A DNA stretch of 11,843 bases from Nitrospinota bacterium (GTDB lineage: Bacteria; UBA8248), in assembly GCA_036231405.1 (NCBI GenBank), contig JAZAHK010000024.1, positions 1 to 11,843 on the forward strand, in the 5' to 3' direction. The first letter of the stretch is position 1, and every line of letters begins with the position of its first letter. The notes under the pieces are model-generated. The model was given only the letters and a program-made list of their open reading frames with translations. It ran no database searches and was not told the origin of the DNA. The position numbers and the translations under genes were made by a program. Below, piece after piece: positions 1-11,470 of this stretch.

Positions 1-393
1 AAAGGGGTACTCAAAGACTACAAAGAAGCAGTCAAGTGGTACACAAAAGCAGCGAACCAGGGATACGCAAGTGCGCAGTACAATCTGGGTTGGATGTATG
101 CAAAAGGATATGGCGTACTCAAAGACTACAAAGAAGCAGTCAAGTGGTACACAAAAGCAGCGAATCAGGGAGTCGCAAAAGTGCAGTCCAATCTGGGTTG
201 GATGTATGAAAGAGGAATAGGCGTTATCAAAGACAAAGTACAGGCACACATGTGGTACAACCTCGCAAGCATTAGCGGAAAAAGTAAATACGCAACTCAA
301 AACAGGGACATTATTGAGAAGGAGATGTCTCGTGCAGAGATACAGGAAGCAAACCGTCTTGCAAGAGAGTGGTTAAGAAAGCATCAAAAGTAA
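1..393 (+). CDS. Sel1-like repeat (SLR) protein, 5'-truncated by the window edge
   Basis: Frame +1 is open from base 1 (KGVLKDYKEAVKWYTKAANQGYASAQYNLGWMYAKG...), so the ATG at 94 is internal. It has 36-aa Sel1 units (AQxNLGxMYxxGxGVxKDxxEAxKWYxKAAxQG) and the usual C-terminal capping segment (QAHMWYNLA...MSRAEIQEANRLAREW). Stop TAA at 391-393. Confidence 0.93.
   Translation, partial: KGVLKDYKEAVKWYTKAANQGYASAQYNLGWMYAKGYGVLKDYKEAVKWYTKAANQGVAKVQSNLGWMYERGIGVIKDKVQAHMWYNLASISGKSKYATQNRDIIEKEMSRAEIQEANRLAREWLRKHQK
4..237 (+). repeat. Tandem 108-bp Sel1 coding units in gene 1 (unit starts 4, 112; degenerate unit at 220)
   Basis: GG(G/C)GTACTCAAAGAC recurs at 4 and 112; GGCGTTATCAAAGAC occurs at 220. 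The period is exactly 108 bp. Confidence 0.95.
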
Positions 394-395
394 TG

Positions 396-438
396 CACTC
401 TGCACGCACTTTGCACTCGTGCGGAACGGTGCAATAAA
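396..438. repeat. 43-bp post-gene hairpin repeat, copy 1
   Basis: CACTCTGCACGCACTTTGCACTCGTGCGGAACGGTGCAATAAA, 42/43 identical to 1621-1663. It starts 2 bp after the stop codon of gene 1. Confidence 0.95.
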
Positions 439-441
439 GTC

Positions 442-450
442 TGCTACAAT
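442..450 (+). promoter_or_regulatory. Putative extended -10 promoter element (TGcTACAAT) for SLR gene 2
   Basis: TG-n-TACAAT lies about 32 bp upstream of ATG 483, with an RBS-like AAGGA at 470-474. There is no good -35 hexamer. Confidence 0.4.
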
Positions 451-482
451 ATAGAAAAATCATTTCACAAAGGATTCCCACC

Positions 483-1613
483 ATGCACTCTTTGAGACCG
501 TGTTTGACTGTGTTCGTCATTGTGTTCGCACTGTGCATCGGTGCAACACAGAGTGCGGAAGGAGGATTTAGAGAAGGATTGGCAGCAGCAAGAAGAGGCG
601 ACTTTGCAACTGCACTCAGAGAGTACCGACCACTCGCAGAAAGAGGAAATAAATTTGCACAGTTCAATCTGGGTGTGATGTACTTCAAAGGAGATGGCGT
701 ACTCAAAGACGACAAAGAAGCAGTCAAGTGGTACAGAAAAGCAGCAAATCAGGGATTCGCAAAAGCGCAGTACATGATGGGTCAGATGTATCGAAGAGGA
801 GAAGGCGTACTCAAAGACATTAAAGAAGCAGCGAAGTGGTACAGAAAAGCAGCGAATCAGGGATACGCAAGGGCGCAGAACAATCTGGGTTATATGTATG
901 AAACCGGATATGGGGTACTCAAAGACAACAAAGAAGCATTCAAGTGGTACACAAAAGCAGCGAATCAGGGATACGCAAGGGCGCAGTACAATCTGAGGAA
1001 ATTAAAAAGCAAGAAAAAAACTGTCTCTTCCAGAACCAGAACCAGCACAAGAACAAATAATTCAACTATTGATGGATATAAAGAAATTAAATTTGGAATG
1101 ACTTTACAGGAAATTAATAATCTTGGGGTTTGTAGTAAGACTTTGAATATCGTTCATATAAGAAATATGAATATGTGTTATTCAATCATAGGTCAAAAAC
1201 GAGAGTTTATCTTTGGGTTTGTAAAAGGAAACAGAGGACTCAAGATGATCACAATCAATTTTGGACGATATGTTCCAAGTCTCCATAATCAAATACGTCG
1301 TATACTCGATCAGAAGTACAAGAAATACTACAGAGGAACGAAAACTGACAGTGACAGATTTCGTTCTGGACAACTACAAGTTTTTAAAGATGCTTGGGAG
1401 AACGGACAAGTTGTTTTAACAATTAAAAGAGTATCCTATTTTACGGAAAAAAGTGTTTTTAAAGGTTGGAATAGTACTGGGGGAAAAAATTATGGAACGC
1501 AAACCGGTACTGCTACAGTCATACAAACACGTCTTATTTACGCGGACAAAGAAATGGCAGGAATCTTTCGTAAAATAATCAGTCAAGAATCAATTAAGAA
1601 GAGTGACTTTTAG
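483..1613 (+). CDS. Exported Sel1-like repeat protein fused to an uncharacterised C-terminal domain
   Basis: AAGGA RBS; hydrophobic signal-peptide-like N-terminus (LTVFVIVFALCIGATQSA); SLR N-cap (GLAAARRGDFATALREYRPLAERG); three full Sel1 units plus a truncated fourth ending at 995; K/S/T/R linker; then about 180 aa beginning IDGYKEIKFGMTLQEI with no family I can name. Confidence 0.92.
   Translation: MHSLRPCLTVFVIVFALCIGATQSAEGGFREGLAAARRGDFATALREYRPLAERGNKFAQFNLGVMYFKGDGVLKDDKEAVKWYRKAANQGFAKAQYMMGQMYRRGEGVLKDIKEAAKWYRKAANQGYARAQNNLGYMYETGYGVLKDNKEAFKWYTKAANQGYARAQYNLRKLKSKKKTVSSRTRTSTRTNNSTIDGYKEIKFGMTLQEINNLGVCSKTLNIVHIRNMNMCYSIIGQKREFIFGFVKGNRGLKMITINFGRYVPSLHNQIRRILDQKYKKYYRGTKTDSDRFRSGQLQVFKDAWENGQVVLTIKRVSYFTEKSVFKGWNSTGGKNYGTQTGTATVIQTRLIYADKEMAGIFRKIISQESIKKSDF
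660..995 (+). repeat. Tandem 108-bp Sel1 coding units in gene 2 (GGxGTACTC at 696, 804, 912)
   Basis: Exact 108-bp period with the same nucleotide framework as the gene 1 units. Similarity ends abruptly after AATCTG at 995. Confidence 0.95.
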
Positions 1614-1620
1614 AGTGTGA

Positions 1621-1663
1621 CACTCTGCACGCACTCTGCACTCGTGCGGAACGGTGCAATAAA
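1621..1663. repeat. 43-bp post-gene hairpin repeat, copy 2
   Basis: One mismatch to 396-438 (T411 vs C1636). It starts 7 bp after the stop codon of gene 2. Confidence 0.95.
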
Positions 1664-1685: not shown

Positions 1686-1832
1686 AAATGTTGTAGTGTT
1701 TCCAAATCAAATCGTGTTAGAAAAACAAATATTTTTATGTTAGATTTCACTTCTTAAATGGTGGTGAACTTACAAACCAACGATACGAATAGTGGTGAAC
1801 AAAGTGGTGAACACGTCATTTAAAAAAACAAT
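1686..1832. repeat. 147-bp non-coding direct repeat, copy 1
   Basis: Ungapped match to 2763-2909 (offset 1077) with 6 mismatches (141/147). Contains GTGGTGAAC at 1761, 1792 and 1804. Confidence 0.97.
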
Positions 1833-1865
1833 GGTGGTGAACAAGTGGTGAACTTGCCACCATTG
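1761..1865 (+). repeat. Cluster of five GTGGTGAAC 9-mers plus a 9-bp inverted repeat; candidate recombinase arm-type sites
   Basis: Exact 9-mer at 1761, 1792, 1804, 1834 and 1845. CAATGGTGG (1829-1837) is inverted at CCACCATTG (1857-1865). The repeats are observed; the function is inferred. Confidence 0.6.
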
Positions 1866-2148: not shown

Positions 2149-2640
2149 TTAATATTTGACTATCCTCTCAGAAAAATGGTGGACAAACTTTTCCATGATT
2201 TGGTCTGATTTTTTGAAATCATCGACTATAGAAAGATTTAGATACTTTAGGATACCTCCTTTGTTTGAAAATAAATTGAGAGTAATTTCTTTTAGATTTT
2301 TACTGCTTGTGTTTCCCTCTTTGAATACTTCCATTACGAGGGCACGAATTGGCAAATGTGAGGTATGTGCAACTAAGAAAGTCCAAATTTTATTATTTTT
2401 ATTACTTTCTTTGAACTCCAATGCATAAACCCACATTTTTGCGACTGTAGGGTCACGCTTATTTTTATTATTACTTAAAGTTAAATTGTCATATCTCTTT
2501 ATTAAGTTAGAAATTTTCTTCTCTAATTTTTCTTTTTTTTCTGGATTTTGGCACATAATTTTAAATTTTACTGGATATGGTTCAGCAAATACTAAAGTTG
2601 AAAAACTTAACAATAAAATAATAAAAACGAATTTTTTCAT
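2149..2640 (-). CDS. Hypothetical secreted protein
   Basis: GGAG RBS upstream on the minus strand and a classic Sec signal peptide (MKKFVFIILLLSFSTLVFA|EP). Lys/Asn-rich and AT-rich; no recognised family. Confidence 0.8.
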   Translation of the reverse strand: MKKFVFIILLLSFSTLVFAEPYPVKFKIMCQNPEKKEKLEKKISNLIKRYDNLTLSNNKNKRDPTVAKMWVYALEFKESNKNNKIWTFLVAHTSHLPIRALVMEVFKEGNTSSKNLKEITLNLFSNKGGILKYLNLSIVDDFKKSDQIMEKFVHHFSERIVKY

Positions 2641-2942: not shown

Positions 2943-3028
2943 GCCCGGGTGGTGAAATGGTAGACACACAGGACTTAAAATCCTGCGAGGGCGACCTCGT
3001 GCCAGTTCGACTCTGGCTCCGGGCACCA
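2943..3028 (+). tRNA. tRNA-Leu (anticodon TAA)
   Basis: Acceptor stem GCCCGGG/TCCGGGC; D-arm GTGAAATGGTAGACAC; anticodon stem CAGGA/TCCTG with loop CT-TAA-AA (TAA at 2976-2978); long variable arm CGAGG-GCGA-CCTCG; T-arm GCCAG-TTCGACT-CTGGC; discriminator A and encoded CCA (3026-3028). Confidence 0.98.
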
Positions 3029-3059: not shown

Positions 3060-4049
3060 ATGACTTCCCCTGGGATCATTACAAAAGATTATTTAATAGA
3101 CTCGCTTGATTCCGATATTAAATTGCATGTCCGAGAAAAACGTCCAAAGGGAAAAAAGAAATTTTCACATTCAGAAACCTTGTTGATGTGTCATGGCAGG
3201 ATAGGGGCAGGTCCGATTGCATTTGATTTGCCGGTTCCTGGATATTCTTGGATGGATTACCATGCAGGAAAGGGTATGAACGTATTCACCCTTTCTGTTC
3301 GTGGTTTTGGTTTTTCTTCTCGACCAAAAGAATTTCTAGAGGATCCTTCTAAAAATCCTCCCGCGATAAGAGGGAAGACGGCGATAAAAGATATTGCATC
3401 GGTTGTAAATTTCATTTGTAAAAAGAACAAGAAAAGGAGAATAAGTCTTCTTGGACGTTCATGGGGGACAACACTTTCTGCTGCGTTTGCTGCATCGAAT
3501 CAGGGTAAAGTACATAGGTTGGTGCTGTATGCTCCTTACTATACGTATGAGAATCGGGAAAGAGCTGCTTCATTTGAGAATCCTAAGTTTCCAGGAAAAT
3601 GGGATGCTAGGAGAGGTGCATGGAGTTGGTGTACCGAAAAAGATTTAAAGGATAGATGGTGGGGACACATTCCTGGCAAGAAACATTTTCGATGGAGGGA
3701 CAAAAAAATTGTGAAGACGTATTTTGAAGAGATGTTCAAAACGGAGACTGAACAACATCCTCGTAATGTACCTGCAGTCCGAATTTCTAATGGATCCTTA
3801 CTAGACGCTTATAACCGGGTTTCAAACAAACCACTCTATAACGCTTCGAAAGTTACATGTCCTGTTCTTTTGATTTATGGAGATTATGATGGAGCGGCTA
3901 ACCACGAAGAGGCGTGGGGACTTTTCGAAAAATTAAAGAATAGTAAAGGAAGGGAATATATAGTTTTTAGTGAAGGCACTCACTATATGGAACTTGAGCA
4001 TAGGCGAGAAGAATTCCTCTCCACTATTCACAATTTTTTAATTTCCTAG
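3060..4049 (+). CDS. Alpha/beta fold hydrolase
   Basis: GGAG RBS at 3047-3050; HG oxyanion motif (LMCHG); RGFGFS; nucleophile elbow GRSWG; acid residue in PVLLIYGDYD; His in EGTHY. Confidence 0.9.
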   Translation: MTSPGIITKDYLIDSLDSDIKLHVREKRPKGKKKFSHSETLLMCHGRIGAGPIAFDLPVPGYSWMDYHAGKGMNVFTLSVRGFGFSSRPKEFLEDPSKNPPAIRGKTAIKDIASVVNFICKKNKKRRISLLGRSWGTTLSAAFAASNQGKVHRLVLYAPYYTYENRERAASFENPKFPGKWDARRGAWSWCTEKDLKDRWWGHIPGKKHFRWRDKKIVKTYFEEMFKTETEQHPRNVPAVRISNGSLLDAYNRVSNKPLYNASKVTCPVLLIYGDYDGAANHEEAWGLFEKLKNSKGREYIVFSEGTHYMELEHRREEFLSTIHNFLIS

Positions 4050-4067
4050 TTTTGTTGATTTCCTCTT

Positions 4068-4496
4068 TTACTCGTCAATGACAGCGGTAACAGTAACCTC
4101 CAGAAGGAGTTTGGGGTGAGCTGCTAATCTCTGTATTTGGACGGTGGTAGTAGCAGGTCTATTGTCCCCAAATGTTTCTTCCCAAATCCTGTTCAATACG
4201 TCTTGGTCATCTATATTTTTCAGATATCTATCTGCCGATACTACGTCCTTTATTGAAGCACCTGCTGTTTCTAAACTTTTCTTGATTTTGTTTAAAACCC
4301 CATGGGTCTGCCCTTCCATATCATCAGGTATTGATTCAAACTCTTCTGGTAGGTGTGGATGATGGTGGTACATGGGGGCTGCTGTCGTTCCTGCTAGATA
4401 TATTGTCGTGCCTCCGCTAACTTTTACAATAGGGATAAAGGGTGCCCAGATATCGGGAGCATCTTTCCAGTGAAGCCTCTCTATAGTACTTGTCAT
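4068..4496 (-). CDS. Rid (YjgF/YER057c/UK114) family protein
   Basis: Motifs IYLAG, EGQT...L..I...LETAGASIKDVV, and LN..W...FG..RPATTTVQIQRL...LLEV...AV. AAGGAG RBS upstream on the minus strand. Confidence 0.9.
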   Translation of the reverse strand: MTSTIERLHWKDAPDIWAPFIPIVKVSGGTTIYLAGTTAAPMYHHHPHLPEEFESIPDDMEGQTHGVLNKIKKSLETAGASIKDVVSADRYLKNIDDQDVLNRIWEETFGDNRPATTTVQIQRLAAHPKLLLEVTVTAVIDE

Positions 4497-4560
4497 TGTT
4501 TTCTCCTTGAAAAATTTTCATTCTACGGGGAACTTTCCTCAAACATTTTTTATCTGTTAG

Positions 4561-4588
4561 TATCAAGTGATATTCATAATACTATAAT
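4561..4588 (+). promoter_or_regulatory. Putative sigma70 -10 (TATAAT 4583-4588) with a palindrome TATCA-AG-TGATA (4561-4572) over the -35 region
   Basis: Located in the divergent intergenic region 4497-4620. Perfect -10 hexamer 32 bp before ATG 4621; RBS GGAGG at 4612-4616. Confidence 0.45.
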
Positions 4589-4620
4589 TTACTGTTTTTG
4601 TATTATTCTCCGGAGGTAAA

Positions 4621-5799
4621 ATGGATTTTCATTTAAGTGAGGAGCAAAAAGGTTTACAGAAATTAGCTCGTGATTTCGCCCGGAATGAATTAATTCCGAA
4701 TTGTGCAGAATTGGACCGTTTCCCTGATGGAGAGGACGCTTTTCCGTGGGATCTCGTTGAACGCGGCTCGAAATTAGGATTTAATAATTTAGCAATTCCC
4801 AAAGAGCATGGTGGACATGGAGCGAGTGTATTAACCCAAGTTTTAGTGATCGAAGAACTATCTGCAGGGGAAGCGGCTGTATCAAAAGTGTATAGCCATA
4901 ACTGGAAAGGAATATCTGGAATTTTGGCTGCTGCTTCTGAGGAGCAAATTGCGAGAATACTCCCAGATTATGTAAAAGATCCAAGATATTGCATTGGGAT
5001 AGGGCTTACGGAGCCAAATTCAGGTAGCGACAATTCACTTCCTTATGATGAGAAAGTTTCTGCAGGCCCGATGCTCTCGGCAGTTCGAGATGGAGACTAT
5101 TACGTGCTTAACGGGATGAAACATTACATTGCTCTTTCTGCACAGTGTAAATATATTTCTATTCTTGCAAGAACGGATAAAAATGTTCCTTGGACAGAAG
5201 GGGTTACTGGATTTATGGTTTTTCCTCCTCAGGATGGATTGGAAATAGGTCGTTTACATGACAAGGTAGGCCTTCGTTTATACCCTCAGAATGAAGTCAT
5301 TGTAAATAATATGAGGATTCCTGTAAGTGATCGCTTAGGAGAAGAAGGTAAATTTCACACAAGCAGAAAAACTGTTGTGAATATTGGAACAGTTGAGGCT
5401 ACCGCTACTGCACTTGGAATAGCAAAGAGATCCTATGAATTGGCCCTTCAATATGCAAGAGAAAGAGTACAAGGTGGGAAGCCAATTATTGAACATCAAA
5501 TTATTTCGTGCCTTCTTCTCGAAATGTTTACACGACTTGAGGCATCACGGTCGATGCTATGGAGATCTGCTTGCAGCATAGATAATGGAATTGATGATGA
5601 TCCAAAACTTGCTCGCGTAACAAAGGCTTTCACTGTAGAGGCCCTAAATTACATCACTACCAAAACGGTAGAAATATGGGGAGGTATGGGAGTGATGACA
5701 GAAGCTCCAGTTGAAAAAGTTTACAGGGATGCAATCCAATTATTCCACATGGGTAGTACAAACCAGGTAAATCTTATGAAAGCTATGCCTGATCTTTAA
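4621..5799 (+). CDS. Acyl-CoA dehydrogenase family flavoprotein (atypical active site)
   Basis: MDFxLSEEQ N-terminus; IPKEHGG; LTEPNSGSD; LNGMKHYI; KVGLR; ERVQGGKPIIEHQ; GGMGV; EKVYRDA. Confidence 0.93.
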   Translation: MDFHLSEEQKGLQKLARDFARNELIPNCAELDRFPDGEDAFPWDLVERGSKLGFNNLAIPKEHGGHGASVLTQVLVIEELSAGEAAVSKVYSHNWKGISGILAAASEEQIARILPDYVKDPRYCIGIGLTEPNSGSDNSLPYDEKVSAGPMLSAVRDGDYYVLNGMKHYIALSAQCKYISILARTDKNVPWTEGVTGFMVFPPQDGLEIGRLHDKVGLRLYPQNEVIVNNMRIPVSDRLGEEGKFHTSRKTVVNIGTVEATATALGIAKRSYELALQYARERVQGGKPIIEHQIISCLLLEMFTRLEASRSMLWRSACSIDNGIDDDPKLARVTKAFTVEALNYITTKTVEIWGGMGVMTEAPVEKVYRDAIQLFHMGSTNQVNLMKAMPDL

Positions 5800-5831
5800 A
5801 AAAGAAAAGAATCATTTCGAAAGGAGGAAAA

Positions 5832-6269
5832 ATGAAGGCGTATGAAAAAAAATTAGGAAGAATTTTTCAGATTCAGTATGAAAAAGGTGATGACTTTTAT
5901 CCTAGTTTAAATGCGTTTGTAAAAGAAAAAAAGATTATGGCCGGAACTGTTTTTTTGATGGGGGCATTAACCCAAACAGAAATGATTTCTGGTTTCAAGT
6001 CAATGGAAGGATATGATGTAGACAGAAGAAGTTTTAACGATTGGAGAGAACTGATAGCTTTAGGTTTTATTAGTTGGCCAGAAGAGCCTCCTCCCGCGTT
6101 GCTTCCTCACGAAAAAGAAGAATGGGTTAGTCCAAGTCCTTATGTTCACATACATATGGCGTTGAGTGGTGGCCCTGGCAATAACGAAGATGTCCTTTGT
6201 GGACATCTAAATGGTGGTTTAATCAAAGGTGGAATGACTCTTGAAATTTATGAACATTTACATATTTAA
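5832..6269 (+). CDS. PPC domain / DUF296 family protein
   Basis: GDD near the N-terminus; GAL; ELIALG; HIH...GHL three-His metal motif. AAGGAGG RBS. Confidence 0.8.
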   Translation: MKAYEKKLGRIFQIQYEKGDDFYPSLNAFVKEKKIMAGTVFLMGALTQTEMISGFKSMEGYDVDRRSFNDWRELIALGFISWPEEPPPALLPHEKEEWVSPSPYVHIHMALSGGPGNNEDVLCGHLNGGLIKGGMTLEIYEHLHI

Positions 6270-6374
6270 AACAGTTCATATTTATCACTTGAGTATCGAT
6301 GTTGAAGGTGCACGTTTTTGCCTCTAAGAATATTCAGTGTCTGTGTCTCGAAACCATGAAACAGAAAGGAACTC

Positions 6375-7748
6375 ATGACTGACATAACTCGTGAGTTGGT
6401 AAGATTTGCTAAAGAGACCAATTTAAGTGATATAAATGACAAGGTTGTTCAAGAGGTCAAGAAGTCTATCCTAGACACGTTGGGTGTAACAATTGCGGGT
6501 AGAAGAACTGAAGTGGCAGAAAAAATTGTAGATTATGTGAGTAATGCAAAAGGGATTGGAAATTCTTCAGTTTTAGGTGAGTCTTTTAAAACAATTCCTT
6601 CATTTGCAGCTCTAGCAAATGGAACTATGGGACATGCTCTTGATTTTGACGATTCAAATAAACTTTTAAACGGCCATGGAAGTGTCACAACCTTTCCAGC
6701 ATCTTTAGCTCTCTCAGAAAAAAATCAGAGTTCAGGTGCACAATTCATAGAAGCCTACCTTCTTGGTTTTGAAGTAGCTTCAAAACTTGGTTCAGTATTG
6801 AATATGGAACTATATGAAAATGGTTGGCATCCTACTGCTGTACTTGGGTCGGTTGGTTCTTGTGTTTCGTCAATACATCTTACTAATCTTTCTGCTGACG
6901 AAGCTTGTTCTGCTTTAGGAATTGTTTCATCCCAAGCTTCAGGATTACGTGCTAATTTTGGTACGATGACAAAACCATTTCACGCTGGAATGGCTGCAGA
7001 ATCAGGTGTCCGGTCAGTAGAATTAGCATCTCTTGGAATGACTTCCAATCAAAATATTTTTGAGGCTAATTCTGGATATGCAAGCGTTTTTAGTAAATTA
7101 GAAAAAATTCAAGACGGTGATTTTATAAGTAGTTTAGGAAATCCATTTTGTTTTGAATCTCCGGGTGTGGATATCAAACCCTACCCTTGTTGTATGTCTT
7201 CGTATAATGCGATTGAAGGAATGTTTTCAATTATTAAAGAAGAGCGTGTGAAGTTGGAAGATGTGGAATCGATTGAGGTGGGTTTGTTGGAAAGTGGGTT
7301 CCTTAACTTGAGTTATCATAGGCCAAAGACAGGTCTGCAAGCAAAATTTTCTGTAGAATATATACTTTCAAGAGTACTTAAAGATGAGAATTTGACAATA
7401 AAAACATTCACGGACGAACTAGTGAATGATCCGCTCATTCAAGAATTCATGGGTAAAATTGATGTAAAAGTTGATAATGAACTAGAGTGGGAGCACCCTA
7501 TGCCTAAACCAACTTTGCTAAAAGTTGCTACCAAAAATGGAAAATTATACGAGAGAACTATCTATACGGCTCGCGGGAAAGCTGAGATGCCATTATCTCT
7601 AGAAGAAGTTGAATTGAAATTCAGAGAATGTGTGGATGGCCTGCTTGAAATTGAAACTACCGATAAAGTTATCAACATCGTAAACGATTTAGATCGAGAA
7701 AAAAGTATTGCCCCTTTGATGAAAGCTCTGTCTGGGTGTAATAATTAG
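6375..7748 (+). CDS. MmgE/PrpD family protein
   Basis: AALANGTMGHALDFDD...GH; GWHPT; GTMTKPFHAG; KPYPCC; AKFS. This looks like a family member rather than bona fide PrpD, so no gene symbol is given. Confidence 0.92.
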   Translation: MTDITRELVRFAKETNLSDINDKVVQEVKKSILDTLGVTIAGRRTEVAEKIVDYVSNAKGIGNSSVLGESFKTIPSFAALANGTMGHALDFDDSNKLLNGHGSVTTFPASLALSEKNQSSGAQFIEAYLLGFEVASKLGSVLNMELYENGWHPTAVLGSVGSCVSSIHLTNLSADEACSALGIVSSQASGLRANFGTMTKPFHAGMAAESGVRSVELASLGMTSNQNIFEANSGYASVFSKLEKIQDGDFISSLGNPFCFESPGVDIKPYPCCMSSYNAIEGMFSIIKEERVKLEDVESIEVGLLESGFLNLSYHRPKTGLQAKFSVEYILSRVLKDENLTIKTFTDELVNDPLIQEFMGKIDVKVDNELEWEHPMPKPTLLKVATKNGKLYERTIYTARGKAEMPLSLEEVELKFRECVDGLLEIETTDKVINIVNDLDREKSIAPLMKALSGCNN

Positions 7749-7778
7749 GATTCACTTCAAAAAAAGAGGTTCTTCACT

Positions 7779-8759
7779 ATGACTACATTACCGACTGTTC
7801 GTACAGTTGGAGTAATTGGAGGTGGCTACGTAGGTCATGGTATTGCTCTTCAATTTGCACAATTTGGGTACAAAGTCCTTGTGTTTAATCGAACAAAAGA
7901 GAGTTCGGAAAAAGCGGTAGATTTGCTGAATAAAAGTTTGGAACTCAGTATTCAGATTGGTTTGTTTGCCGAGAGTAAAAAAGAAGATGTCTTTTCTTCG
8001 ATTTCTTTCGAAAACGATTTTGAAGGTGTCGTTAAAAGAAGTGATTTTATAGTAGAGTCCACAAGTGAAAAATTAGATTTAAAGAGAGAGGTTTTTGCGG
8101 ATATGGATTCTATTGCACCTCCTGATGTGATTTTGGCAAGTGAAACTTCAGGTCTTCTTCTTTCGGAAATTATAGAAGGGATTAATAATCCAGAACGTTG
8201 CATCGTTACTCATAGTTATACGCCACCTTTTTTGATTCCAGTCGTAGAAGTTGTTCCTGGAGATAAGACGAGCCATGCAACCTTAGATAAAACTCTTGAG
8301 ATACTGAAGACAGTTGATAAGACCCCTGTGGTATGCAAGGAAACAATTGGTCATATAGGGGTGAGATTAACGACTGCTCTTAGAAGAGAAGCATTTCATA
8401 TCGTACAGGAAGGGTATGCATCTGCGGAATCAGTAGATAAAGTTTTCAGATCGATCTCTACACTTTTCCCTATTTTAGGTGTTTTGATGTTGTCGGATTT
8501 TTCAGGGATTGATGTCTTGTCCGATGTACACAAAAATATACAGCCTCACTTAAATCACGAAAAAGGAAATGCTCATGTTTTAGAAAATTTATTGAAAGAA
8601 GATGCACTTGGAGTGAAAAGTGGGGTAGGTTTTTATAAATGGGAAAAAGAAGATATGAACAAAATAATGCTCGCTAGGAACCGAGAACTTGCTAGGTGGA
8701 CAAAAAAGGATAGTTTTCCAAAAATTCCAGAGGAGAATGAAAGAACTTATTCTCCGTAA
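7779..8759 (+). CDS. 3-hydroxyacyl-CoA dehydrogenase family protein (atypical motifs)
   Basis: Rossmann GGGYVGHGIA; IVESTSEKLDLK; ILASETSG; His-Glu pair (HSYTPP...VEVV); ALRREA; GVKSGVGFYKW. Confidence 0.88.
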   Translation: MTTLPTVRTVGVIGGGYVGHGIALQFAQFGYKVLVFNRTKESSEKAVDLLNKSLELSIQIGLFAESKKEDVFSSISFENDFEGVVKRSDFIVESTSEKLDLKREVFADMDSIAPPDVILASETSGLLLSEIIEGINNPERCIVTHSYTPPFLIPVVEVVPGDKTSHATLDKTLEILKTVDKTPVVCKETIGHIGVRLTTALRREAFHIVQEGYASAESVDKVFRSISTLFPILGVLMLSDFSGIDVLSDVHKNIQPHLNHEKGNAHVLENLLKEDALGVKSGVGFYKWEKEDMNKIMLARNRELARWTKKDSFPKIPEENERTYSP

Positions 8760-8780
8760 CAAAATAAGGAGTATCAGTAA

Positions 8781-9998
8781 ATGGTTGATTATAATTTAGG
8801 TGAGAACTTAAAAAAATGGCAGTCGAAAGTTGCTGAATTTGCAAAAATAGAATTGAAACCAAATGCACAGGAATGGGATAGGCAGAATGGTATTGATCCC
8901 TCTAATCCATTCCCCTTTGAAACCTTAAAGAAGGCTTCCAAAGAGGGGATAAGGACGTTGACAGTACCAAAAGATATGGGTGGGGAAGGTTTGGGTATTT
9001 TTGCCCATGTAGTTTTATTGGAAGAACTTGTAGCTGGAGAAGCAGGTTTTGGTGCGGTCATACATCAAGGATGGAAACTTGCCAAGATGTTATGTGAACA
9101 TACCAACGAGGAACAAAGAAAAGAATTTTTGCCGCGATTTATGGATGTCGATACAAGTACTATGGCGATTGGAATGACTGAACCTGACCATGGAACCGAT
9201 AATATTCGTCCTGCGACGAATATTGATGGAGGAATGAAGCTTTCCGCAGTTAAAAACGGTAATAACTGGGTCCTAAACGGGAAAAAACATTTTATAGCTT
9301 GTGCTGCAATAAGTAATATCAACTTTTTATGTGCTAGGACGGATCCAAATGTTCCTGTCAATGAAGGTGTAACCTTATTTATTATGCCCGGAGAATTGGA
9401 TGGGTATACTAGAGGAATAGTTCATGGAAAGATGGGGTGCAGGTTACTTATGAATGGCGAAATGATTTATGAAAATGCTGAAGTCCCTGAGGAATGGAGA
9501 TTAAGTGAAGTAAACGATGGTCTTCCATATATGTCACGAGTTTTTTCAAGACACTCCCCAACTACTGCAACTTTTGGATTAGGTATTGCACGTGCAGCAT
9601 ACGAAGATGCCATCGATTATGCTAAAGGGCGTGTCCAAGGCGGTGCCCCTATTATCGAACATGATGAAATTCGTGAACGTATAGCGGATATGTATGTCTC
9701 TATTTCTGTCGCTAGAGATGCAATTTGGCAGGCTGCATGGCACGCTGACAATGCACCCGAAGGGGAGTATGATCATAAAGAGGGAATGAGGGTGAAGATT
9801 TTCGCATCTGATATGGCACCTCAAGTTTGCACTAGCGCTATGAATATTTTTGGTGGAGTTGGATACATGACAACACATTCAGCAGAAAGACACATGCGAG
9901 ATGCTATGATGTGTTATCACATAGATGGTCTCAATGACACTGTAAGATGGAAACTTGGGAGATTAATTGCAGGAGAAAAATTTGCGGGCTCTATCTAA
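8781..9998 (+). CDS. Acyl-CoA dehydrogenase family flavoprotein (second paralog)
   Basis: VPKDMGGEG; MTEPDHGTD; LNGKKHFI; KMGCR; RVQGGAPIIEH; KIFASD; FGGVGY; ERHMRDA. Confidence 0.93.
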   Translation: MVDYNLGENLKKWQSKVAEFAKIELKPNAQEWDRQNGIDPSNPFPFETLKKASKEGIRTLTVPKDMGGEGLGIFAHVVLLEELVAGEAGFGAVIHQGWKLAKMLCEHTNEEQRKEFLPRFMDVDTSTMAIGMTEPDHGTDNIRPATNIDGGMKLSAVKNGNNWVLNGKKHFIACAAISNINFLCARTDPNVPVNEGVTLFIMPGELDGYTRGIVHGKMGCRLLMNGEMIYENAEVPEEWRLSEVNDGLPYMSRVFSRHSPTTATFGLGIARAAYEDAIDYAKGRVQGGAPIIEHDEIRERIADMYVSISVARDAIWQAAWHADNAPEGEYDHKEGMRVKIFASDMAPQVCTSAMNIFGGVGYMTTHSAERHMRDAMMCYHIDGLNDTVRWKLGRLIAGEKFAGSI

Positions 9999-10026
9999 TT
10001 TCGGGGCATCTTGGAGAAATTTGTAA

Positions 10027-11058
10027 ATGAAAGCGATGGTTTTGAAAAAATGGGGAGAGAAATTATCTTTTGAAGAAGTTCCTGATCCTGAACCTAAATA
10101 CTCAGAAGTAATTGTTCGTGTGCATGCATGTGCTCCTGATCAATTCGATGTGACTATTCGTGATGGAAGGGCAGGAGGTAACTTGCCACTGATTTTAGGA
10201 CATGAGATTGCGGGCAAGATTGTTTCGATTGGTAAAGGAGTAGAACATTTCAAGGAAGGGGATAAGGTAGTTGCTCATCCTTACCTTACTTGCGGTCATT
10301 GTAGATTTTGCCAAGTGGGTCGAGAGACCTTATGTCTAAATTTTAAAGGTTATCTGGGAGTCCATTCTGATGGTGGTTATGCAGAATATGTTGCAGTTCC
10401 TGAAAAAAATCTATGTCGATTTCCAGATGGTATCGATTTTGCTTTGGCAACTACAATTGTGAGTCCCGTTGCGACGCCTTTAAAGGCTCTCAAAACCAGG
10501 GCAAAAATTCAACCTGGGCAAACAGTTTTGATAGTGGGTGCATGCGGGGGTGTAGGAATTCATGCAGTTCAGATAGCGAAAGCGTTTGGTGCAAATGTTA
10601 TTGCTGTGGATATTGATGATAAAAAACTCTCTTCTGCAAAAGGTTTGGGTGCAGATCATCTAGTAAATAGCATCAAAAAGGATTTTTCTGATGAAGTTCT
10701 TGAAATCACAGATGGGAGGGGAGCAGATGCTGTTTTAGAATTAGTAGGTACAGATTTAACCTTGCCAAAAAGCTTCCGTTCAATTTCTAGGGCAGGAGTA
10801 CTAGTGGTTGTAGGATTTCAACCAGGAAAGATTTTTGAATGTGATCCCACACGTTTTGTCGATGACGAAATATTAGTTACAGGGTCAAGATATGTGAATA
10901 AGGCAGAGTTGAGTGAAGCGGCTGAATGGATAGGAAACGGAAGAATAAAGCCCGTGATTTCTGGGACGTATGATCTAAAAGATGCAGAACAAGCCCTACA
11001 GGATCTTACATCCGGCAAAATTTTCGGTAGAGCGCCAATTCAAATTATAGAAGACTAA
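10027..11058 (+). CDS. Zinc-binding medium-chain dehydrogenase/reductase (alcohol dehydrogenase-like)
   Basis: GHEIAG; structural Zn motif CGHCRFC(x7)C; DGGYAEY; GACGGVG nucleotide-binding loop followed by AVDID. Confidence 0.92.
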   Translation: MKAMVLKKWGEKLSFEEVPDPEPKYSEVIVRVHACAPDQFDVTIRDGRAGGNLPLILGHEIAGKIVSIGKGVEHFKEGDKVVAHPYLTCGHCRFCQVGRETLCLNFKGYLGVHSDGGYAEYVAVPEKNLCRFPDGIDFALATTIVSPVATPLKALKTRAKIQPGQTVLIVGACGGVGIHAVQIAKAFGANVIAVDIDDKKLSSAKGLGADHLVNSIKKDFSDEVLEITDGRGADAVLELVGTDLTLPKSFRSISRAGVLVVVGFQPGKIFECDPTRFVDDEILVTGSRYVNKAELSEAAEWIGNGRIKPVISGTYDLKDAEQALQDLTSGKIFGRAPIQIIED

Positions 11059-11080
11059 TTTTTTTAAGGAGGGATAGAGT

Positions 11081-11470
11081 ATGGCTAAAGTGTTAAGTGT
11101 GAAAAATCTTCCTGTTGATCAAAAATATGAACCAGGATTCAATCTTACGTTTGGGATTACTGACGAGACAACTGGTATAGAAACTGCAACGTTGGTGAGG
11201 ACGAATTTTCCTCCTGATACTGTTAGTAAACCACATTATCATGAGAATGGGGATTTAATGTGGTATCACATGTCTGGTCCCAAAGCTATTTGGAATATAG
11301 GGAAAGAAAAAGTAGAACATGTAACCGAACCAGGGGATTTTATCTTTATTCCAAGAGGGGAAATTCACAATACCGTGAATAATAGTAAAACTGAGTCAGT
11401 AGAAGGGATTGGAGGTTATGGTGGTTGTCCTAATCCTTATAAGAGTGGAAAAATTTTCGTAGAAATTTAA
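11081..11470 (+). CDS. Cupin domain protein
   Basis: Motif 1 PHYHENGD and motif 2 PGDFIFIPRGEIH. AAGGAGG RBS. Confidence 0.88.
   Translation: MAKVLSVKNLPVDQKYEPGFNLTFGITDETTGIETATLVRTNFPPDTVSKPHYHENGDLMWYHMSGPKAIWNIGKEKVEHVTEPGDFIFIPRGEIHNTVNNSKTESVEGIGGYGGCPNPYKSGKIFVEI

What the first reader, a model, noticed from the sequence alone, without database searches (positions are those of the whole stretch)
4..995. Sel1 units with a frozen nucleotide framework and hypervariable codons, shared across two genes
I aligned the units starting at 4, 112, 696, 804 and 912. Framework codons are identical even at wobble positions; only three columns show synonymous variation (GGG/GGC, GCG/GCA, AAC/AAT). 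Specific codons change by multi-base non-synonymous swaps: codon 6 TAC/TAC/GAC/ATT/AAC; codon 10 GTC/GTC/GTC/GCG/TTC; codon 21 TAC/GTC/TTC/TAC/TAC; codon 23 AGT/AAA/AAA/AGG/AGG; codon 26 TAC/TCC/TAC/AAC/TAC; codon 30 TGG/TGG/CAG/TAT; codon 33 GCA/GAA/CGA/GAA; codon 34 AAA/AGA/AGA/ACC; codon 36 TAT/ATA/GAA/TAT. Inference: unit shuffling or gene conversion between paralogs combined with diversifying selection, giving a modular variable binding surface reminiscent of TALE-, PPR- or VLR-type repertoires.
Basis: partly seen in the sequence, partly recalled or inferred. Interest (0 to 1): 0.7.

Follow-up and report, generated by a model that had tools for sequence, protein, structure and literature searches.

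The report
Fast-evolving secreted Sel1-repeat gene family
Two neighbouring genes of an uncultured marine bacterium encode exported Sel1-repeat proteins whose near-identical repeat units differ mainly at residues predicted to line the binding groove, a pattern of recent copying plus diversifying selection already known from other repeat-protein families.

Summary
Five 108-bp Sel1 units (starts 4, 112, 696, 804, 912) in two adjacent genes are 81-95% identical. With three more units from a related metagenome contig (L021), codon models favour a class with omega about 6-9 (LRT 23.5-28.3 on six topologies; largest of 60 null simulations 8.0). The selected codons (6, 21, 23, 30, 33, 34, 36) are mostly family-wide variable Sel1 positions. 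Those on helix A lie on one helical face, the helix that lines the concave groove in solved Sel1-like structures. Codon preference does not explain the frozen framework: 10 of 20 degenerate framework codons are non-preferred, and GC3 is 0.48 against 0.28 genome-wide. No reverse transcriptase, adenine bias or silent unit store was found, so a programmed TALE-, PPR- or VLR-like system is unsupported. The closest analogue is the Haemophilus influenzae SlrV/msf family. Unexpected extras are a near-identical leader cassette shared with pentapeptide-repeat genes, and framework synonymous divergence between species about 4.5 times lower than in the one flanking gene compared. It is a new member of a known kind, of moderate interest.

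The parts
1..393 (+). Gene 1, 3' part only (130 aa). The contig begins inside its Sel1 array, so the unit count is unknown.
   Evidence: ORF list and translation; Pfam Sel1 E 1.2e-28; window = contig C24:1-11843
4..219 (+). Two full 108-bp Sel1 units (4-111, 112-219)
220..390 (+). Degenerate last repeat plus C-terminal capping helix of gene 1. The same cap type ends the L021 gene.
396..438 (+). 43-nt element just after the stop of gene 1. A second copy lies at 1621-1663 (98% identical), and it also occurs in L021. Its predicted hairpin is no better than shuffles.
439..482 (+). Shared promoter/5'UTR part of the leader cassette. By eye it holds TGnTACAAT at 442-450 and AAGGA at 470-474. The consensus scan reported no promoter here.
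483..563 (+). Signal-peptide-like leader of gene 2. About 97% nt identical copies head two pentapeptide-repeat genes (C28, C19) and the L021 gene.
483..1613 (+). Gene 2 (376 aa): leader, Sel1 array, Lys/Ser/Thr-rich linker, and a C-terminal domain of about 130-180 aa with no known family
588..695 (+). First, degenerate Sel1 unit of gene 2. Its second half follows the framework.
696..911 (+). Two full units of gene 2 (696-803, 804-911)
912..995 (+). Truncated unit (codons 1-28). It joins the AT-rich C-terminal part here, where GC falls from about 0.45 to about 0.31-0.34.
1621..1663 (+). Second copy of the 43-nt post-stop element, after gene 2

Best explanation
These are two members of a lineage-specific, tandemly arranged family of exported Sel1-like-repeat (SLR) proteins in an uncultured marine bacterium. 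The 36-residue units were copied or homogenised recently, by tandem duplication and exchange between paralogs, which is why framework codons are identical even at wobble positions. After or during that copying, amino-acid replacements accumulated several times faster than synonymous changes at a few positions. Five of these (23, 26, 30, 33, 34) sit on one face of helix A, the helix that lines the concave groove of SLR/TPR solenoids; 6, 21 and 36 lie at or beside the helix ends. The proteins therefore most likely act as periplasmic or secreted binding adaptors whose ligand specificity is set by these residues and is under diversifying selection. Shown here: the repeat anatomy, the SLR fold, the site-specific excess of replacements, and the mosaic of highly conserved and diverged segments. 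Inferred: export, the binding role of the variable face, gene conversion as the homogenising process, and the ligand, which is unknown.
For: Anatomy and SLR identity: Sel1 129 bits against cut-off 30.7; pLDDT about 98 over residues 30-175; Foldseek top hits are all SLR proteins. Site-specific selection on 8 units: M1a -420.5 against M2a -408.3, LRT 24.4, omega2 8.3 for 20% of sites, codons 6, 21, 23, 30, 33, 34, 36 with posterior >0.9. LRT is 23.5-28.3 on star, by-genome and 3 random trees. In 60 simulations under M1a the largest LRT was 8.04 against 25.5 observed. Tree-free minimum counts: 6 synonymous changes over 21.3 sites; at least 40 replacements over 27.8 sites at the 11 positions that are variable across the whole Sel1 family (defined beforehand from alignment A1); ratio 5.1, binomial p 1e-5. 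The other 25 codons give a ratio of 0.54. Recency rather than codon preference: 10 of 20 degenerate framework codons are not the genome's preferred codon, and GC3 is 0.48 against 0.277 (998 long ORFs) and 0.283 (EF-Tu, GroEL, EF-G). Exchange between paralogs: W4 and W912 are 95% identical; framework pS is 0.05-0.12 against 0.39-0.57 in non-repeated cap segments. One face: the helical moment of variability on helix A is 0.62 against 0.26 in permutations, p 0.002. Helix 1 lines the concave surface in LceB (passage read). TPR positions 2, 5, 9, 12, 13, 33, 34 are the variable concave-face, ligand-contacting ones (passage read). An independent contig, L021, shows the same architecture.
Against: There are only 8 short units, from two genomes. 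Site models assume one tree and no recombination, though the result held on every topology tried. Of 66 informative site pairs, 25 are incompatible, yet a PHI-type test gave no positional recombination signal (p 0.9975), so conversion itself is not demonstrated. Between the two genomes, framework pS (0.12) is far below that of the one flanking orthologue available (0.54, dS about 0.97). The synonymous yardstick may therefore be depressed by something other than recency. Replacement divergence at variable codons between genomes (pN 0.40) does not exceed that genomic pS. Transitions to transversions are 113:303, which looks like saturation. I had no model coordinates, so 'one face' rests on helical periodicity plus literature, not on measured exposure. 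Positions 6, 21 and 36 are not on helix A's face, and helix B's stripe (6, 10, 14) was not significant (p 0.08). Export was judged by eye only. No ligand is known.
Confidence: 0.6

Rival explanations
1. There is no positive selection. The hypervariable positions are simply unconstrained and old, close to saturated. The framework is held constant at the DNA level by some other force, such as GC-biased or otherwise biased gene conversion among many copies, an RNA- or DNA-level constraint, or repeated exchange between species. The units' own synonymous rate would then understate neutral time.
For: Framework pS between genomes is 0.12 against 0.54 in the flanking orthologue. Conserved segments are exactly the multi-copy ones (framework, leader, first 20 cap codons), and these have raised GC3 (0.41-0.48) in both genomes, while single-copy segments have pS 0.39-0.57 and GC3 0.23-0.30. 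Ts:tv is 113:303. pN at variable codons (0.36-0.40) is below the genomic pS.
Against: Translational codon preference is excluded as the constraint. Many frozen third positions are A, not G/C, so GC-biased conversion alone does not explain them. Neither Rfam nor folding shows a significant structure in the intergenic element; the coding units themselves were not folded. Conversion tracts would have to skip single codons unless selection protects them, which is diversifying selection again.
Confidence: 0.2
2. The array, or its unit order and number, is an assembly artefact of a metagenome-assembled genome, with repeats collapsed or chimerically joined.
For: The contig starts inside the array. 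Public short-read contigs over 1-1000 are fragments of about 100-240 nt.
Against: Both reading frames stay open through all junctions. An independent metagenome contig (L021) carries a complete gene of the same build, with the same leader, cap and 43-nt element. A paralog on C19 has the same repeat-linker-C-domain layout as gene 2.
Confidence: 0.05
3. This is a programmed diversification system: a diversity-generating retroelement, or cassette-donor recombination of the VLR or pilin type, that rewrites the variable codons.
For: Variation is focused in a few codons within an otherwise identical scaffold. Leader and 3' sequences that could serve as recombination handles are shared between genes.
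Against: No RVT_1 reverse transcriptase was found in the 92%-complete genome. Variable columns are not adenine-specific: 13 of 37 have consensus A, and A makes up 42 of 108 consensus bases. nhmmer finds near-identical units nowhere else in the assembly, only diverged ones on C15.
Confidence: 0.03

Closest known systems
Haemophilus influenzae variable SLR family SlrV, including msf (PMC4792463; abstract and section 5 read)
   Same: Contiguous tandem genes for signal-peptide-bearing proteins built of 36-residue Sel1-like repeats. There are different numbers of repeats per gene and a conserved C-terminus. Motifs cluster across genes rather than within them. The locus lies at contig breaks in draft assemblies.
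   Different: The C-terminus here has no pair of equidistant cysteines. The host is a free-living marine bacterium, not an animal commensal or pathogen. Here the leader cassette is also shared with pentapeptide-repeat genes, and one member is fused to an unrelated C-terminal domain. That paper's section 5 reports no codon-level selection analysis of the repeat positions.
Helicobacter pylori slr/Hcp gene family under positive selection (PMC1941758; abstract and section 9 read)
   Same: A family of secreted SLR proteins expanded by duplication, with dN/dS > 1 and selected residues on protein surfaces.
   Different: In hp0519, 24 of 26 selected sites lie outside the SLR motifs, which are strongly conserved. 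Here the selected sites lie inside the repeats, many of them on helix A. The Hcp cysteine pairs are absent.
Hypervariable concave-face positions of TPR repeats (Magliery and Regan, PMC1261162; passages read)
   Same: A fixed scaffold in which positions 2, 5, 9, 12, 13, 33, 34 vary and contact the ligand. By my own motif alignment, unit positions 23, 26, 30, 33, 34, 21 correspond to TPR 2, 5, 9, 12, 13, 34. That alignment uses the TPR consensus recalled from memory and was not tested with a tool.
   Different: That work describes family-wide variability, not recent within-gene divergence measured against synonymous change. SLRs have different loop lengths.
Solved bacterial SLR proteins: Oxalobacter formigenes 6ok3, Legionella LceB 8sxq and LpnE 6deh, E. 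coli EsiB/c5321 4bwr
   Same: Sequence E-values 3e-97 to 2e-55. Foldseek probability 1.0 and rmsd 0.9-2.3 A over about 150 residues.
   Different: Only 35-47% identity. None has the C-terminal domain of gene 2. No orthology is implied.
TALE, PPR and lamprey VLR repertoires
   Same: Only the general design: tandem units with a constant framework and a few specificity residues.
   Different: There is no evidence of nucleic-acid reading, of a one-unit-one-base code, or of somatic or programmed assembly from silent cassettes. The fold is different.

Membership tests
Sel1-like repeat (SLR) proteins, Pfam PF08238 | Match to the Sel1 profile above the gathering score | tested here: met
   P0001 98.9 bits and P0002 129.1 bits against cut-off 30.7; the L021 gene 163.7 bits
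Sel1-like repeat (SLR) proteins, Pfam PF08238 | Pairs of antiparallel helices forming a solenoid | tested here: met
   The AlphaFold2 model has helix pairs at 57-69/77-89, 93-105/113-125 and 129-141/149-161 with pLDDT about 98. Foldseek's best matches are solved SLR proteins.
Sel1-like repeat (SLR) proteins, Pfam PF08238 | N-terminal export signal, usual in bacterial members | tested here: inconclusive
   The leader MHSLRP + 13 hydrophobic residues + ATQSA was judged by eye. No signal-peptide predictor was available.
H. influenzae SlrV-type variable SLR family | Several SLR genes in tandem at one locus, with differing repeat numbers | tested here: met
   Two adjacent genes in the window and two in L021. 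Full units are at least 2 (gene 1, truncated), 2 plus a degenerate and a truncated one (gene 2), and 3 plus a degenerate one (L021).
H. influenzae SlrV-type variable SLR family | Conserved C-terminus with two equidistant cysteines | tested here: not met
   The cap sequences of gene 1 and L021 contain no cysteine.
H. influenzae SlrV-type variable SLR family | Presence and copy number vary between strains | tested here: inconclusive
   Contigs of 4 public runs are too short over the array. Contigs covering 1823-2400 or 2057-2400 continue leftwards with unlike sequence.
Diversity-generating retroelement target | Reverse transcriptase and template repeat | tested here: not met
   0 matches to PF00078 in the 91.9%-complete genome. 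No further near-identical unit copies were found.
Diversity-generating retroelement target | Variation confined to adenine positions | tested here: not met
   13 of 37 variable columns have consensus A, and A is 42 of 108 consensus bases.
Cassette-donor variation systems (VLR, pilE/pilS type) | Store of silent donor cassettes | tested here: not met
   nhmmer with the unit profile finds 10 hits: 5 in the window and 5 diverged ones in an intact gene on C15. Repeats may be missing from a draft assembly.
TALE / PPR modular nucleic-acid readers | One repeat reads one base through defined specificity residues | not testable with these tools
   No binding data. The fold and sequence family are SLR, not TALE or PPR.

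The most novel reading that the evidence does not exclude
The family is a recombination-ready kit. A nucleotide-identical leader cassette (promoter, 5'UTR, signal peptide), a 43-nt 3' element and the frozen repeat framework would be kept alike within and between species because they serve as homology handles. Binding modules (Sel1 units, pentapeptide blocks, a rare C-terminal domain) would be swapped through them among secreted proteins and among strains, giving the population a shuffled repertoire of binders.
Probability: 0.1. Interest if true: 0.7.

Novelty: new member of a known kind. Interest (0 to 1): 0.35.

Why it matters
If the reading holds, this is a clean natural example of a consensus-like repeat scaffold in which a few groove-facing residues per unit carry rapidly evolving specificity. 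It occurs in a free-living marine bacterium, not a pathogen. It marks these proteins as candidates for interaction with other organisms or particles, and it offers naturally varied Sel1 units for studying specificity. The unexplained nucleotide-level conservation of the multi-copy segments between species bears on how multigene families are homogenised in bacteria: framework pS is 0.12 against 0.54 nearby, with GC3 raised by about 0.2.

Tried and rejected
- **Unit number and order from public runs.** The 4 runs laid gave only short contigs of about 100-240 nt over the array. There were many loose ends from other Sel1 genes, and joints at 85% likeness that I could not interpret. No conclusion on unit order, unit number, habitat or expression was drawn. 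Bins 961-1120 had little or no cover, so the Sel1/C-domain junction of gene 2 has no independent check.
- **Recombination test.** A PHI-type permutation on 12 informative sites gave no signal (p 0.9975).
- **The 43-nt element as terminator or structured RNA.** Folding z-scores were -0.5 to -1.6. The terminator scan found nothing there, and Rfam gave no match.
- **Promoter scan.** It reported no sigma-70 site in the leader cassette. The extended -10 is my reading by eye.
- **Taxonomy.** The search for related loci returned only distant Sel1 genes from mixed phyla. A PrpD-like protein search gave unnamed close hits at 82-87% and named ones only at 47% or less.
- **C-terminal domain of gene 2.** No Pfam or NCBIfam family matched, the model was poor, and the nearest Atlas clusters were only hypothetical proteins.
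- **Same-genus genome G002.** A 79% DNA match to the leader region heads an unrelated-looking 395-aa ORF. I did not interpret it.
- **Literature search for conserved-leader variable lipoprotein families.** It returned nothing usable. The resemblance to such mycoplasma families is recalled only and is not used as evidence.

Full report
**Observation.** The window is contig C24 of a 2.09-Mb, 48-contig draft genome with 36.8% G+C. Base 1 lies inside a Sel1 array. Two genes carry the repeats.

- Gene 1 (1..393) lacks its 5' end. It holds two full 108-bp units (4, 112) and a degenerate last repeat with a capping helix (220-390).
- Gene 2 (483..1613, 376 aa) has a leader, a degenerate first unit (588), full units at 696 and 804, and a unit at 912 that follows the repeat only to codon 28.

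Twenty of 36 codons are invariant. Three vary only synonymously (1, 17, 18). All nine listed variable codons read as stated. Four further non-synonymous columns (14, 24, 27, 28) were missed. Units are 81-95% identical. Over whole units pN/pS is only about 1 (0.5-3.5), so any excess must be site-specific.

**What surrounds it.** Both proteins match Pfam Sel1 far above threshold. The Sel1 part of gene 2 models at pLDDT about 98 and superposes on solved Sel1-like proteins.

After unit 912 come a Lys/Ser/Thr-rich linker and a C-terminal domain with no Pfam or NCBIfam family. That domain has only 31 related clusters among 1.84 billion representatives. Of the 8 hits I scanned against Pfam, 2 were fused to pentapeptide repeats.

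A 43-nt element follows both stop codons (98% identical).

The 5'UTR plus signal-peptide coding region of gene 2 recurs at about 97% nucleotide identity in front of two pentapeptide-repeat genes of the same genome (C28, C19). The C19 gene also ends in a relative of gene 2's C-terminal domain. The 5'UTR recurs on C3, where the frame stops after 8 codons.

One scan of public metagenome contigs with the framework pattern gave one contig, L021. It carries:

- the tail of a cap-type gene;
- the same 43-nt element and leader cassette;
- a complete 345-aa gene made of leader, an unmatched N-terminal domain, a degenerate unit, three full units (707, 815, 923) and the same cap.

The architecture is therefore real outside this assembly. 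The family is modular at the level of whole domains.

**Selection tests.** I used eight units, five from the window and three from L021, and fitted codon site models of my own coding.

- On the maximum-likelihood tree M1a gives -420.5 and M2a -408.3, an LRT of 24.4 (p 5e-6). Twenty percent of codons fall in a class with omega 8.3. Codons 6, 21, 23, 30, 33, 34 and 36 have posterior above 0.9.
- The LRT stays at 23.5-28.3 on a star tree, a by-genome tree and three random trees.
- In 60 data sets simulated under the fitted M1a, the largest LRT was 8.04 against 25.5 observed.
- A count that needs no tree gives at least 6 synonymous changes over 21.3 synonymous sites. It gives at least 40 replacements over 27.8 sites at the 11 positions that are 'x' in the consensus of 41 diverse Sel1 proteins. 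That class was fixed before looking at these units. The ratio is 5.1, binomial p 1e-5. The other 25 codons give 0.54.

The window (0.060) and L021 (0.048) lie at the low end of a continuum, not in a class of their own.

**Is the synonymous yardstick sound?**

- The frozen framework is not explained by codon preference. Ten of 20 degenerate framework codons are not the genome's preferred codon. GC3 of the units is 0.48, against 0.277 in 998 long ORFs and 0.283 in EF-Tu, GroEL and EF-G.
- Another Sel1 gene of the same genome (C15) uses ordinary codons: GC3 is 0.30, and 49% of shared residues use a different codon from the window's units.
- One result cuts against a simple reading. The only flanking orthologue available between L021 and this genome has pS 0.54 (dS about 0.97). 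Framework codons compared between the two genomes have pS 0.12, the same as within the window.
- The leader (pS 0-0.11), the first 20 cap codons (0.17) and the intergenic cassette (7 differences in 90 columns) are similarly conserved. The middle and tail of the cap are not (0.39-0.57).
- The conserved segments are the multi-copy ones, and all have raised GC3 (0.41-0.48) in both genomes.

Recent exchange between lineages, biased conversion among copies, or an unknown DNA-level constraint could each produce this pattern. I could not separate them. Under the last two, replacements at the variable codons (pN 0.36-0.40; transitions to transversions 113:303) could be old and neutral. That is the main rival.

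**Where the variable residues sit.** The model's helices place unit positions 22-34 on helix A and 6-18 on helix B.

- Replacement counts on helix A have a helical moment of 0.62 against 0.26 in permutations (p 0.002).
- The 6-10-14 stripe on helix B is not significant (p 0.08).
- In the LceB structure paper, helix 1 of each repeat lines the concave surface (passage).
- In TPRs, positions 2, 5, 9, 12, 13, 33 and 34 are the variable, ligand-contacting concave positions (passage).
- By my own motif alignment these correspond to unit positions 23, 26, 30, 33, 34 and 21. That alignment uses the TPR consensus recalled from memory.

I had no coordinates, so exposure was not measured.

**Alternatives tested.**

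- Retroelement: no reverse transcriptase in the 92%-complete genome and no adenine bias.
- Silent cassettes: near-identical units occur only in the window.
- Recombination: many incompatible site pairs (25 of 66) but no positional signal.
- Artefact: argued against by open frames through all junctions, by L021 and by the C19 paralog. Unit order in the window has no long-read support.

**Comparison with what is known.**

- The nearest described system is the H. influenzae SlrV/msf family. It has tandem secreted 36-residue-repeat genes, varying repeat numbers, a conserved C-terminus, and motifs that cluster across genes. This family lacks the cysteine-bearing C-terminus and is not shown to be related by descent.
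- H. pylori slr genes show positive selection, but mostly outside the repeats.
- Variable groove positions on a fixed scaffold are textbook for TPR and ankyrin repeats.

The finding is therefore a new member of a known kind. The TALE/PPR/VLR comparison holds only as a loose design analogy.

**Verdict.** Interest is moderate (0.35). The shared leader cassette and the cross-species nucleotide conservation of the multi-copy segments are the parts most worth following.

Noticed in passing
window 439-563; G000 C28:32412-32534, C19:7819-7911, C3:61344-61412(-); L021 121-236: A promoter/5'UTR/signal-peptide cassette is about 96-97% identical in nucleotides in front of genes with different mature parts (Sel1 repeats, pentapeptide repeats, an unmatched N-terminal domain). 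On C3 the 5'UTR part matches at 91-98%, depending on the stretch compared, and the frame stops after 8 codons. A same-genus genome has it at 79%.
   Followed up: partly
window 1686-1832 and 2763-2909: A 147-nt direct repeat (96%) flanks an AT-rich stretch of about 930 nt (G+C 25-32%) that holds a 163-aa ORF (2149-2640, minus strand) with no family match. The second copy ends 33 nt before tRNA-Leu(taa) at 2943-3028. This may be a small insertion or duplication at the tRNA.
   Followed up: partly
window 1761-1853 and 2838-2889: The 9-mer GTGGTGAAC occurs 8 times (0.07 expected), all inside the two repeat copies. A 22-nt stretch around it is 73% like the 5' part of the tRNA-Leu gene (2948-2969).
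   Followed up: partly
window 1047-1610 (P0122); G000 C19:8279-8593: The C-terminal domain of gene 2 belongs to no described family. Only 31 clusters match at E <= 1e-3 among 1.84 billion representatives. Of the 8 hits scanned against Pfam, 2 were fused to pentapeptide repeats; other hits are about 180-aa proteins.
   Followed up: partly
window 393-401 and 483-491: The 9 bases ATGCACTCT that open the leader also begin at the last base of gene 1's stop codon and run into the 43-nt element. The element might be a decayed leader remnant.
   Followed up: no
window 1-1000 against 1050-1610: There is a sharp composition break inside gene 2. GC3 is 0.41-0.48 in the leader and Sel1 units and 0.26 in the C-terminal domain. 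With the unit cut at codon 28, this suggests a fusion of parts with different histories.
   Followed up: partly
G000 C15, minus strand, about 24475-25611 within a 703-aa open frame: A long Sel1 protein whose C-terminal part looks by eye like a trypsin-type serine protease (it was not scanned). Many database homologues of the Sel1 part carry PF13365/PF00089. Its units share the framework residues but use ordinary codons.
   Followed up: partly
G010 C1:2810399-2813878 (L002, L023): A relative in the same family with a nearly closed genome (2 contigs) has at least five Sel1 genes in tandem, each matching from about the leader onwards at 52-55% identity. Tandem Sel1 gene arrays thus recur in this bacterial family.
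   Followed up: no
L021 233-600: The N-terminal domain of the L021 gene (about 120 aa) has no tblastx match in this genome and no Pfam family.
   Followed up: partly
window 3060-11470: The rest of the window is an ordinary catabolic cluster: alpha/beta hydrolase, RidA-like protein, two acyl-CoA dehydrogenases, PCC-domain protein, MmgE/PrpD, 3-hydroxyacyl-CoA dehydrogenase, zinc alcohol dehydrogenase and cupin. All have genome-typical GC3 of 0.26-0.33.
   Followed up: no
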